From the human T2T-CHM13v2.0 reference genome, Homo sapiens: a stretch of DNA of 64,000 nt. Under the pieces are notes generated by a model. That model worked only from the letters and a program-made list of their open reading frames with translations. It was not told the origin of the DNA and did not search any database. Made by a program: the position numbers and the translations under genes. Shown piece by piece: positions 38,311 through 40,367 of this stretch; the first letter of the stretch is position 1, and every line of letters starts with the position of its first letter. The stretch is from the NCBI RefSeq assembly GCF_009914755.1, contig NC_060943.1. One strand, written 5' to 3'.

Positions 38311-39136
38311 AAAGGACACAGGGGCTACTTAAAGTGGTTCCCACTGGCTAAATTTAAGACCATTTGTGCCTCAAAATAAATAATGACAAGGCCGGGCATG
38401 GTGGCTCATGCTTGTAATCCCAGCACTTTGGGAGGCCAAGGGGGGCAGATCACTTGAGGTCAGGAGTTCAAGACCAGCCTGGCCAATATGGTGAATCCCA
38501 TCTCTACTAAAACTACAAAAATTATCCAGGTCCATCCTGGCTAACACGGTGAAACCCCATCTCTACTAAAAATACAAAAAAAAATTAGCCAGGTGTGGTG
38601 GCAGGCACTATAGTCCCAGCTACTCGGGAGGCTGAGGCAGGAGAATGGCGTGAACCTGGGAGCCAGAGCTTGCAGTGAGCCGAGATAGCGCCAGTGCACT
38701 CCAGCCTGGGCGACAGAGCGAGCCTCTGTCTCAAAAAAAAAAAAAAAAATTTATCCAGGCATGGTGGTGCACGCCTGTAATCCCAGCTATTCGGGAGGCT
38801 GAGGCAGGAGGATCGATTGAACCTGGGAGGCAGAGGTTGCAGTGAGCTGAGATCACACCACTGCACTCCAGCCTGGGTGACAGAGCGAGACTCCATCTCA
38901 TAAATAAATAAATAAATAATGACAGTAATAGACTATAACCCACAGAATAAAAATCCATGAGACCATGCTGGTATAAAGAAAGAAGAATGGAGAAGACACA
39001 GCTCTTCTTTAGAGTAGAATGCCAACTAACACACGCAGAAGGAAACATAGAATCAGAAAATCACCATTTATTGTTAGTAGCCACCTAACAATAATAGATT
39101 CAGGGAAAAATCAATTGATTCTAAAACTAGTGGGCA

Positions 39137-39314
39137 GGCCAGGTGCGTTGGCTCAAACCTGTAATCCCAGCTACTCGGGAGGCTGAGGCAGGAGAATTGC
39201 TTGAACCTGGGAGGAGGAGGTTGCAGTGAGGCGAGATCGTGCCACTGCACTCCAGCCTGGGGGACAGAGTGAGACTCTGACTCAAAACAACAACAAAAGA
39301 CAAACAAAAAACAA
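39137..39314 (+). mobile_element. Monomer-length Alu (left-arm head fused to right arm) with 13-bp target-site duplication TAAAACTAGTGGG (39122-39134 / 39315-39327)
   Basis: ggccaggtgcgttggctcaaacctgtaatcccagc runs straight into tactcgggaggctgaggcaggagaa. Confidence 0.85.
39159..39256 (-). CDS. MAP4K1: MAP4K1 alternative Alu-derived exon (98 nt): [32 protein letters not shown](G)
   Basis: ccccag|GCTGGAG acceptor, ACAG|gtttga donor in an antisense Alu; phase joins neighbours and gives the ...VAGITGL end I recall for the 833-aa HPK1. Confidence 0.88.
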
Positions 39315-40367
39315 TAAAACTAGTGGGTGAAAATCTGATGAGAAACAACGTATTTACAGACTATTTACCTCGTCTCAGTGAATCTCCCCAAAAGATACTT
39401 CTTTTTTTTTTTTTGAGACAGAGTTCACTCTTGTTGCCCAGGCTGGAGTGCAATGGCGCGATCTCGGCTCACTGCAACCTCCGCCTCCCGGGTTCAAGCG
39501 CTTCTCCTGCCTCAGCCTCCCGAGTAGCTGGGATTACAGGCATGCAACACCATGCCCGGCTAATTTTGTATTTTTAGTAGAGACAGGGTTTCTCCACATT
39601 GGTCAGGCTGGTCTCAAACTCCCGACCTCAGGTGATCCACCTGCCTCGGCCTCCCAAAGTGCTGGGATTACAGGCGTGAGCCACCGCGCCCGACCGGTGG
39701 GATACTTCTTATTACAAAGAAAAACAGAGGCTGGGTGCGGTGACCCCTGCCTATAAGCCCAGCACTTTGGGAAGCCTACACAGGTGAATCTCTTGAGTCC
39801 AGGAGTTCCAGACCAGGCTAAGTAACATGGCGAAACCCTGTCTGTACAAAAAATACGAAAATAAGCCAGGTGTAGTGGTACGCGCCTGTCATCCCAGCTA
39901 CCCGGGAGGTTGAGGTGGGAGGACTGATTGAACCCAGGAGGTCGAGGCTGCAGTGAGCCATGATCGCGTCACTGCACTCCAGCCAGGGTGACAGAGAGAG
40001 AATCTATCTTTAAAAAAAAAGAAAAAGGGAGAAAAAAGCAACTTCACAGTGGAGAGAACTGGCTGATTCTACCTTAACCAAATGACCGAAGTTAATATCA
40101 CCAGTAATGGGACAAACTAGCATTGTGTACTTCCTGAAATGATGCACTGAGAAAGACATCTTTCTGCAGTATTCCTGCCCAAAATGCAGAACGTGGAAAC
40201 CTCAAACACAGTCAAGGAACATTCTAGAAAACAACTTTCCTTTACTCTTGAAAAAGGTCAAAGCTCATTAAAGACAAAAGAAGTCTAAATAATTGTTCCA
40301 GGCTAAATAATAAAGAAACATGACTCCTAAGTGCAACCTATGATCTTGGACCAGAAAAAAAAAAAAA

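What the first reader, a model, noticed from the sequence alone, without database searches (positions are those of the whole stretch)
39122..39327. Alu-derived coding exon that frameshifts the MAP4K1 terminal exon and replaces the CNH C-terminus
Seen: the antisense Alu supplies ccccag|G...ACAG|gtttga, a 98-nt exon. Joined to exon 30 (ends CCC AG) it reads [33 protein letters not shown]. It then enters the terminal exon in a second frame, GL*, instead of RPVVVETRPVDDPTAPSNLYIQE*. The terminal exon is therefore dual-coding, and the stop lies in the last exon, so the isoform should escape NMD. Established: Alus are primate-specific, and the skipped-form tail resembles the conserved MAP4K2/3/5 C-terminus. 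From memory, the 833-aa reference HPK1 ends in this Alu peptide and the 821-aa form lacks it, so the exon itself is probably annotated. Inference: the Alu form loses terminal CNH beta-strands and may fold or bind partners differently, which matters for a kinase targeted in immuno-oncology.
Basis: partly seen in the sequence, partly recalled or inferred. Interest (0 to 1): 0.8.

Follow-up and report, generated by a model that had tools for sequence, protein, structure and literature searches.

The report
Known Alu exon alters HPK1 tail
An old Alu-type repeat inside the last intron of the immune kinase gene MAP4K1 (HPK1) is sometimes spliced in as an extra exon, swapping the protein's conserved tail for a repeat-derived one; this is real, but it is already annotated and was published in 2001.

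Summary
Window 39159-39256 (minus strand, 98 nt) is an annotated coding exon of MAP4K1 with AG and GT splice sites. It lies inside an antisense Alu-type monomer bounded by perfect 13-bp target-site duplications at 39122-39134 and 39315-39327. Only 1 of 5 RefSeq models, NM_007181.6 (833 aa), includes it. The RefSeq 'select' model NM_001042600.3 (821 aa) skips it. The isoforms are identical through residue 799. Inclusion shifts the frame, so the terminal exon gives two codons and a TAG 5 nt past the last junction. This replaces a 22-residue tail conserved in MAP4K2, MAP4K3 and MAP4K5.

The only solved citron-homology-domain structure, PDB 8EEC (R481-E821), is the skipped form. No PDB chain carries the Alu tail. 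Loss of beta-strands remains untested, because no model could be built here.

New here:
- The element is a free, right-arm-type monomer with strong CpG decay.
- The donor is weak (rank 38 of 41) and the longest U-run is 6.
- The upstream sense Alu pairs with the whole exon and both splice sites (109 nt, 92%).

The exon is not novel: a review table cites Nekrutenko and Li (2001) for an Alu at the C-terminus of human HPK1.

The parts
39159..39256 (-). Alu-derived cassette exon, 98 nt. It is exon 31 of 32 in NM_007181.6 and encodes residues 799-832 of the 833-aa isoform.
   Evidence: Sequence. RefSeq transcript table. Translation and residue numbering.
39257..39320 (-). 3' splice site AG (39258-39257) with the pyrimidine-rich tract upstream. 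The tract is the reverse complement of the element's A-rich tail. Its longest uninterrupted U-run is 6.
   Evidence: T runs of 4, 6, 3, 4 and 4; pyrimidine fraction 0.73. The acceptor ranks 27 of 43 in the window.
39153..39158 (-). Weak 5' splice site, CAG|GTTTGA.
   Evidence: Rank 38 of 41 donors of the window by a leave-one-out PWM (3.3 bits), with 6 of 9 consensus positions matched.
39135..39314 (+). Free-standing, right-arm-type Alu monomer (body 39138-39285) with its own interrupted A-rich tail. It is antisense to MAP4K1.
   Evidence: A single Metazoa_SRP match on the plus strand. 92% complementary to the right arm of the neighbouring Alu against 74% to its left arm. 153 HSPs to window Alus, the best non-self ones 89-90.5% identical. 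CpG 4 observed against 12.4 expected.
39122..39134 (.). Target-site duplication, copy 1 (TAAAACTAGTGGG).
39315..39327 (.). Target-site duplication, copy 2 (TAAAACTAGTGGG).
39391..39697 (-). Full dimeric Alu in the same intron, sense to MAP4K1, 134 nt upstream of the exon in the pre-mRNA. Its right arm (39432-39540) is complementary to 39158-39266, which covers the whole exon and both splice sites.
   Evidence: Two SRP-type matches on the minus strand, 39578-39694 and 39413-39560. Inverted repeat of 109 nt, 92%, with a 165-nt spacer. Fold z-score -19.2. 92 of 98 exon nt are paired, and the AG and GU are both paired.
43262..43317 (-). Exon 30 (residues 781-799), the last exon shared by both isoforms. 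It ends in the first two bases of the Arg799 codon.
37622..37798 (-). Terminal exon. It is read as 22 conserved residues plus TGA (37731-37729) when the Alu exon is skipped. It is read as Gly-Leu-TAG (stop at 37793-37791) when the exon is included.
   Evidence: The tail is conserved in the paralogues.

Best explanation
This is a known alternative cassette exon of MAP4K1 (HPK1), created by exonization of an old, free-standing Alu-type monomer that retrotransposed antisense into the last intron.

How the exon arises:
- The reverse complement of the element's degraded A-tail serves as the polypyrimidine tract.
- An AG in the element body is the acceptor.
- A GT in the element body is a weak donor.

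Skipping is the RefSeq 'select' form (821 aa). It keeps the ancestral tail, which is shared with MAP4K2, MAP4K3 and MAP4K5 and is present in the crystallised citron-homology beta-propeller.

Inclusion (NM_007181.6, 833 aa) adds 98 nt and shifts the frame. It ends translation 5 nt into the last exon, so the mRNA should escape NMD. The protein is the same through Arg799 and then carries 34 Alu-derived residues rich in Ser, Pro and Gly in place of the 22 conserved ones.

Shown here: the anatomy, the reading frames, the annotation, the paralogue conservation, and which isoform was crystallised.

Inferred:
- Inclusion is the minor, regulated outcome. The reasons are the weak donor and predicted masking of the exon by pairing with the upstream inverted Alu, set against a U-tract too short for strong hnRNPC repression.
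- The Alu tail removes a structurally important C-terminal segment of the propeller, probably part of blade 7, which would lower stability or change partner binding.
For: Splice sites and sequence.

RefSeq models: 1 of 5 includes the exon, and the 'select' model skips it.

Proteins: 833 against 821 aa, identical through residue 799.

Alu identity, monomer nature and target-site duplication.

Donor rank 38 of 41 and acceptor rank 27 of 43. Longest U-run 6.

Attig et al. 2016 (PMC5115870, passages read): cooperative hnRNPC binding needs about 9-10 U, and old Alu exons have short U-tracts and are less repressed.

Inverted Alu pair and fold:
- 109 nt, 92% complementary.
- MFE -346.9 against -197.05 +/- 7.79 kcal/mol for 20 shuffles.
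- 92 of 98 exon nt paired, mean pairing probability 0.94.

Tail conservation: the terminal exons of MAP4K3, MAP4K5 and MAP4K2 share the VV.ES.P..NP.A.SNLYI pattern and the split-Arg junction.

Structures:
- PDB 8eec_A, 'Isoform 2 of MAP4K1', ends in the conserved tail.
- No PDB chain has the MAP4K1 Alu tail. The Alu peptide matches only Alu peptides in other proteins: the GIP receptor, gamma-tubulin complex component 2 isoform 3, and a chain named 40S ribosomal protein S29.
- Chitre et al. 2024 (PMC11066036) used M1-E821 and R481-E821. They report that blade 7 is closed by three C-terminal strands plus one N-terminal strand, and that the CHD stabilises HPK1 in cells.

Prior print: the table of review PMC5977194 reads 'Alu ... 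Fixed at C-terminus of Human HPK1'. It cites Nekrutenko and Li 2001.
Against: No expression data could be consulted. Reads are off and supplements are closed, so 'minor isoform' rests on the annotation choice and splice-site quality only.

The fold is an in-silico minimum-energy model of naked RNA. Co-transcriptional folding, helicases and proteins may prevent the duplex.

The structural consequence is unproven:
- The Pfam CNH model could not be scored on the tail (0 families for the 22-aa piece).
- The KD-CHD interface mapped by Chitre et al. involves K558 and the 574-594 loop, not the C-terminus.
- C-terminal Flag, HaloTag and NanoBit fusions were used in their assays, so the very end is at least solvent-accessible.

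Primate restriction of the insertion and of its splice sites was not tested here. No primate genomes or full-length orthologue proteins were within reach.
Confidence: 0.9

Rival explanations
1. The Alu-tailed 833-aa isoform is a selected, primate-specific regulatory variant. By replacing the strands or tail that close blade 7 of the propeller, it would change autoinhibition (KD-CHD binding), SLP76 docking or turnover of HPK1. Its level would be tuned by the Alu-Alu duplex, ADAR or helicases, and hnRNPC.
For: - The stop is placed so that NMD is avoided.
- The frame is open across the whole exon.
- The element is old and CpG-decayed, and it has a shortened U-tract like the 'late-stage' Alu exons of Attig et al..
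- The CHD controls HPK1 stability, kinase activity and SLP76 docking (PMC11066036 abstract).
- The exon is embedded in a strong predicted duplex.
- A review table lists an A-to-I S/S site in MAP4K1 (PMC11995373).
Against: - There is no evidence of selection.
- 2 of the 3 frames of the exon are open anyway.
- The 'select' model and 4 of 5 RefSeq models skip the exon.
- No isoform-specific experiment was found in 10 paper searches.
- The position of the reported editing site is unknown to me.
Confidence: 0.15
2. Inclusion is tolerated splicing noise. The transcript exists and escapes NMD, but the Alu-tailed protein misfolds or is unstable and has no function of its own. Its prominence as the historical 833-aa 'HPK1' would be an accident of which cDNA was cloned first.
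For: - The donor is weak.
- Skipping is the 'select' form.
- The replaced tail is conserved in all four GCK-I paralogues, so its loss is likely to be harmful to folding.
- The CHD is needed for HPK1 protein stability (PMC11066036).
- The Alu tail is 56% Ser, Pro, Gly, Ala or Asn.
Against: I recall, without any call to support it, that the 833-aa cDNA has been used as functional HPK1 in many studies. That would argue that it folds and signals. No stability data for either isoform were seen.
Confidence: 0.45
3. The exon is an annotation or cDNA artefact, for example a partly processed RNA, and is not part of any mature mRNA.
For: Only 1 of 5 RefSeq models carries it. No read data were available here.
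Against: - The exon has precise canonical AG and GT sites at both ends.
- It is in a curated NM_ record.
- The PDB depositors' name 'Isoform 2' for the 821-type tail implies a catalogued other isoform.
- It was cited in print in 2001 as an Alu at the C-terminus of human HPK1.
Confidence: 0.03

Closest known systems
The HPK1 example of Nekrutenko and Li 2001 (Trends Genet 17:619). I saw it only as reference 53 and a table entry in review PMC5977194.
   Same: It appears to be the same object: 'Alu ... Fixed at C-terminus of Human HPK1'.
   Different: I could not read the 2001 paper (not held). I therefore cannot say whether it describes the monomer nature, the target-site duplication, the inverted partner or the isoform ratio.
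Antisense Alu exonization. The class is described in Attig et al. 2016 (PMC5115870, passages read). Lev-Maor 2003, Sorek 2002/2004 and Zarnack 2013 are recalled or cited there.
   Same: - Antisense orientation.
- The U-rich complement of the A-tail serves as the polypyrimidine tract.
- The AG and GT lie inside the Alu body.
- The exon is used alternatively.
- Short U-tract, as in old Alu exons.
   Different: - The source is a single free monomer of about 150 bp with its own tail and target-site duplication, not a dimeric Alu.
- The exon is penultimate, so the frameshift ends in the last exon. It gives a stable C-terminal replacement rather than an NMD target.
Other proteins with Alu-derived peptide segments present in solved chains: GIP receptor chain 8itm_R and gamma-tubulin complex component 2 isoform 3 (6v6b_C).
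   Same: They use the same antisense-Alu reading frame. Residues 8-32 and 1-20 of the exon peptide align to them.
   Different: Those are N-terminal or internal insertions. Here the peptide replaces a conserved C-terminus.
Inverted-repeat Alu pairs that form dsRNA, are edited by ADAR and influence nearby exon choice. One example is the SELENON Alu exon paper PMC9076623, seen as a search listing only. Lev-Maor 2008 is recalled.
   Same: An oppositely oriented Alu sits 134 nt away, with 109 nt of 92% complementarity covering the exon.
   Different: No editing or splicing data for this site were seen. The only lead is a table entry, 'MAP4K1 S/S', attributed to Kang et al. 2015 in PMC11995373. I do not know its position.

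Membership tests
Exonized antisense Alu (Alu cassette exon) | The exon lies wholly inside an Alu-type element that is antisense to the gene. | tested here: met
   SRP/Alu-domain match on the plus strand at 39138-39285, with the gene on the minus strand. Masked block 39136-39324. 153 HSPs to other Alus in the window.
Exonized antisense Alu (Alu cassette exon) | Both splice sites are supplied by the element, with the complement of the A-tail acting as the polypyrimidine tract. | tested here: met
   AG at 39258-39257 and GT at 39158-39157, both between the two target-site duplications. The tract is described.
Exonized antisense Alu (Alu cassette exon) | Both the inclusion and the skipping mRNA exist. 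| tested here: met
   RefSeq has NM_007181.6 (inclusion) and NM_001042600.3 plus 3 XM models (skipping). This is annotation only; no reads were examined.
Exonized antisense Alu (Alu cassette exon) | The element and the exon are restricted to primates. | not testable with these tools
   No primate or other mammalian genomes were available. Full-length orthologue proteins were out of reach of the length filter. Indirect evidence only: all three human paralogues keep the non-Alu tail.
Free Alu monomer (FRAM-like; the name is recalled, from no call) | A single monomer with its own A-rich tail and flanking target-site duplications. | tested here: met
   One SRP-type match, against two for the neighbouring dimeric Alu. 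Perfect 13-bp duplication immediately flanking the monomer plus tail.
Free Alu monomer (FRAM-like; the name is recalled, from no call) | The sequence is of right-arm type, assigned against a curated subfamily consensus. | tested here: inconclusive
   92% complementary to the neighbour's right arm against 74% to its left arm. No curated consensus was available and none was built, so no subfamily or age was assigned.
NMD-immune C-terminal replacement isoform | The stop codon lies in the last exon, or less than about 50-55 nt upstream of the last junction. | tested here: met
   TAG at 37793-37791, 5 nt downstream of the last exon-exon junction.
Dual-coding (overlapping-frame) exon | A substantial stretch is translated in two frames in different mRNAs. 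| tested here: not met
   Only 8 nt (37798-37791, two codons plus the stop) are read in the second frame. The label is formally true but has little content.
CNH/citron-homology seven-bladed propeller with blade-7 closure | Residues 800-821 contribute beta-strands of blade 7. | not testable with these tools
   The paper states that three C-terminal strands plus one N-terminal strand form blade 7 in R481-E821. Residue ranges of the strands were not in the text read. No permitted protein id was available for structure prediction. Pfam CNH gave no match on the 22-aa piece.
Inverted-repeat Alu dsRNA / ADAR substrate | Two oppositely oriented Alus lie close together in one transcript and have long complementarity. 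| tested here: met
   109 nt, 92%, with a 165-nt spacer. Fold z-score -19.2.
Inverted-repeat Alu dsRNA / ADAR substrate | A-to-I editing is observed at the site. | not tested
   Only a review table entry, 'MAP4K1 S/S', of unknown position.

The most novel reading that the evidence does not exclude
The HPK1 C-terminus could be chosen by an RNA-structure switch. The penultimate Alu exon and both its splice sites would be sequestered in a 109-bp duplex with the upstream inverted Alu. Inclusion would then depend on the dsRNA-handling state of the cell (ADAR1 editing, helicases, hnRNPC). That would couple interferon or dsRNA signalling in primate lymphocytes to production of an HPK1 whose beta-propeller lacks its conserved closing tail, with altered stability or autoinhibition. 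If so, experiments and models based on the 833-aa sequence and on the 821-aa sequence would describe two functionally different proteins. I recall, from no call, that the 833-aa sequence is the database-canonical one.
Probability: 0.1. Interest if true: 0.55.

Novelty: already known. Interest (0 to 1): 0.2.

Why it matters
HPK1 is a drug target in immuno-oncology, and two 'full-length' sequences are in circulation. The RefSeq 'select' form and the only solved CHD structure are the 821-aa form. The other curated RefSeq record is the Alu-tailed 833-aa form, which I recall is also the historical numbering. The two differ in a segment conserved in all GCK-I paralogues. That segment lies in the domain reported to control HPK1 stability, autoinhibition and SLP76 docking (PMC11066036). 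People making constructs, degraders or structural models should therefore know which tail they are using. As a discovery it adds little, because the exon is annotated and was cited in print in 2001. The details that may be new are small: the free monomer with its target-site duplication, the weak donor, the short U-tract, and the inverted-Alu duplex that masks the exon.

Tried and rejected
1. Structure modelling of the two CHD variants was not done. The predictor accepts only window stretches or proteins returned by the protein search. The protein search sees only proteins of 0.55-1.75 times the query length. The longest stop-free frame over any MAP4K1 exon in the window is 178 aa, which would reach 311 aa at most. 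That is too short for 8eec_A (343 aa) or the full-length proteins. I therefore ran none of the 3 protein searches and neither structure job.

2. get_proteins with the PDB chain name was answered 'not a protein id'. I dropped that route.

3. I scanned 8 exon-by-exon pieces against Pfam. Only 1 of 8 (47010-47111) matched CNH, below the cutoff (17.6 against 26 bits, profile positions 91-120 of 255). The two tails gave nothing, so Pfam cannot say whether the tail belongs to the domain.

4. The search of the human reference with the 22-aa tail found the MAP4K1, MAP4K3 and MAP4K5 terminal exons but missed MAP4K2. I found MAP4K2 by fetching its 3' half and running tblastn in a script.

- None found a paper in the held library that studies the two isoforms.
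- 'MAP4K1' with 'Alu exon' gave 0 papers.
- The prior description surfaced only through a review table.
- The 2001 paper and the 1996 cloning papers are not held. That the first human cDNA was the 833-aa form is therefore my recollection only.
- Supplements are closed. They may hold this exon's inclusion values and bear on the 'minor isoform' inference. Examples are the GTEx inclusion table of Attig et al. 2016 and Alu-exon proteome lists.

6. I did not date the element against a consensus, and I built no consensus. The only age indicators are CpG depletion and 80-90% identity to other copies.

7. I rejected 'dual-coding exon' as a meaningful label (8 nt only). I also rejected 'artefact', given the canonical splice sites and the curated record.

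8. The sub-threshold Rfam miRNA-family matches (MIR8562, mir-3135, mir-1268, mir-1972, mir-619, mir-3473) all lie on Alu sequence and fall far below their gathering scores. I treated them as Alu-derived look-alikes, not genes.
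Full report
WHAT IS THERE

On the minus strand, window 39256 down to 39159 is a 98-nt stretch preceded by ...ctctgtcccccag and followed by gtttga. RefSeq annotates it as a coding exon of MAP4K1. 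It is exon 31 of 32 in NM_007181.6 (BestRefSeq). It is absent from NM_001042600.3, the model marked 'select', and from the three XM models. So 1 of 5 models includes it.

I spliced the annotated coding parts in a script. This gave 833 aa with the exon and 821 aa without it. The two proteins are identical through residue 799.

Exon 30 (43262-43317) ends with the first two bases of codon 799. Either downstream exon begins with G, so residue 799 is Arg in both forms.
- With the Alu exon, the next 32 residues are [32 protein letters not shown] (window 39255-39160). The terminal exon is then read as Gly, Leu and TAG (37793-37791).
- Without it, the terminal exon reads PVVVETRPVDDPTAPSNLYIQE and TGA (37731-37729).

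The TAG starts 5 nt after the last exon junction. By the established 50-55-nt rule, the inclusion mRNA is not an NMD target. The second reading frame in the terminal exon covers only 8 nt.

THE ELEMENT

TAAAACTAGTGGG occurs at 39122-39134 and 39315-39327. Between them lies a single Alu-type monomer on the plus strand. Rfam Metazoa_SRP matches 39138-39285 at 52.9 bits, E 2.4e-12. An interrupted A-rich tail follows.

The neighbouring repeat at 39391-39697 gives two such matches on the minus strand and is an ordinary dimeric Alu. The monomer is 92% complementary to that neighbour's right arm and 74% to its left arm. It gives 153 blastn HSPs to other Alu copies in the window, the best non-self ones 89-90.5% identical. 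It has 4 CpG where 12.4 are expected, against 14 of 23.2 in the neighbour.

I read it as an old, free, right-arm-type monomer that inserted on its own by target-primed retrotransposition. 'FRAM-like' is a name I recall, not one from a call.

SPLICING SIGNALS

I applied a crude leave-one-out weight matrix to all annotated RYR1 and MAP4K1 splice sites in the window.
- The donor CAG|GTTTGA ranks 38 of 41 (3.3 bits, 6 of 9 consensus positions).
- The acceptor ranks 27 of 43.

The pyrimidine tract is the complement of the A-tail, and its longest U-run is 6. Attig et al. 2016 (PMC5115870, passages read) report that cooperative hnRNPC binding needs about 9-10 uridines. They also report that old Alu exons have shorter U-tracts and are less repressed. 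This exon fits that late-stage picture. That is an inference.

A STRUCTURE THAT COULD MASK THE EXON

In the pre-mRNA, the dimeric Alu (sense to the gene) lies 134 nt upstream of the exon. Arms 39432-39540 and 39158-39266 are 109 nt long and 92% complementary. Together they cover the whole exon and both splice sites.

Folding 39120-39720 as RNA gives -346.9 kcal/mol, against -197.05 +/- 7.79 for 20 shuffles (z = -19.2). In the minimum-energy structure, 92 of 98 exon nucleotides are paired, 87 of them with the right arm of the upstream Alu. The AG and the GU are both paired. The mean pairing probability over the exon is 0.94.

This is a model of naked RNA. Whether the duplex forms in cells, is edited, or lowers inclusion was not tested. 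One review table lists an A-to-I 'S/S' site in MAP4K1, attributed to Kang et al. 2015 (PMC11995373). I do not know where that site lies.

WHAT IS LOST

The terminal exons of the three paralogues in the same genome encode the following, after the same split Arg codon:
- MAP4K3: [28 protein letters not shown]
- MAP4K5: [28 protein letters not shown]
- MAP4K2: [28 protein letters not shown]

The skipped-form tail of MAP4K1 is therefore the ancestral one and is strongly conserved.

The only solved structure with this region is 8eec_A, named 'Isoform 2 of MAP4K1' by its depositors. It is 343 residues long and ends in the conserved tail. The Alu peptide matches no MAP4K1 chain. It matches only Alu-derived segments of other proteins.

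Chitre et al. 2024 (PMC11066036; abstract, sections 6, 8, 13 and 37, and passages) crystallised R481-E821 and used M1-E821 as full length. Their relevant findings are:
- The fold is a seven-bladed propeller whose seventh blade is made of three C-terminal strands plus one N-terminal strand.
- The domain stabilises HPK1 in cells, binds the kinase domain and helps dock SLP76.
- The mapped kinase-domain interface (K558 and the 574-594 loop) is not at the C-terminus.

The text I read does not give the residues of the blade-7 strands. Whether residues 800-821 are among them is a plausible inference, not a result. The Alu tail is 56% Ser, Pro, Gly, Ala or Asn and has two Cys.

WHAT COULD NOT BE DONE

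No structure model was made, no orthologue comparison was possible, and no expression data were seen. Details are in Tried and rejected.

KNOWN OR NEW

The exon is in RefSeq. The existence of two isoforms is reflected in the PDB molecule name. A review table states 'Alu ... Fixed at C-terminus of Human HPK1', citing Nekrutenko and Li 2001, Trends Genet 17:619 (PMC5977194). I saw the citation, not the paper.

Ten searches of the held library found no paper that compares the two isoforms functionally. That library lacks most subscription journals, and supplements are closed.

VERDICT

The exceptions are that the beta-strand loss remains untested, 'reference' should read 'one of two curated RefSeq forms, not the select one', and 'dual-coding' covers only 8 nt.

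The feature is an ordinary, already described Alu cassette exon. Its practical consequence is for people who work on HPK1, because two different C-termini are in use. Interest is 0.2. The boldest reading not excluded is a dsRNA-gated switch of the HPK1 tail. I give it a probability of about 0.1.

Noticed in passing
window 39158-39266 and 39432-39540: An inverted Alu pair of 109 nt, 92% complementary, separated by 165 nt. It is predicted to enclose the whole cassette exon and both splice sites in a duplex (fold z-score -19.2). It is a possible ADAR substrate and splicing mask.
   Followed up: partly
window 37545 and 37622: RYR1 (plus strand) and MAP4K1 (minus strand) end tail to tail. Their annotated 3' ends are only 76 bp apart. 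An AATAAA lies about 20 nt before the MAP4K1 end.
   Followed up: no
window 56872-56991: A 120-nt in-frame coding exon appears only in the Gnomon models XM_054319680.1 (861 aa) and XM_054319681.1 (767 aa). Neither NM_ transcript has it. This is a second alternative cassette in MAP4K1.
   Followed up: no
window 38800-39900: Sub-threshold Rfam matches to miRNA families (MIR8562, mir-3135, mir-1268, mir-1972, mir-619, mir-3473) all fall on Alu sequence, far below their gathering scores. They are Alu look-alikes, not miRNA genes.
   Followed up: partly
MAP4K1 coding sequence, position unknown: A review table (PMC11995373) lists an A-to-I editing site in MAP4K1 that gives S/S, attributed to Kang et al. 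2015. Within the Alu exon, only two TCA codons could give that change.
   Followed up: partly
window 39245-39256 (minus strand): A second AG lies 12 nt inside the exon (...GTGCAG|T). Used as the acceptor, it would remove four codons and keep the same Alu reading frame (my reading). No RefSeq model uses it.
   Followed up: no
window 46323-51670 (plus strand): The lncRNA MAP4K1-AS1 overlaps several CHD-coding exons of MAP4K1 on the opposite strand. This comes from the annotation supplied with the finding.
   Followed up: no
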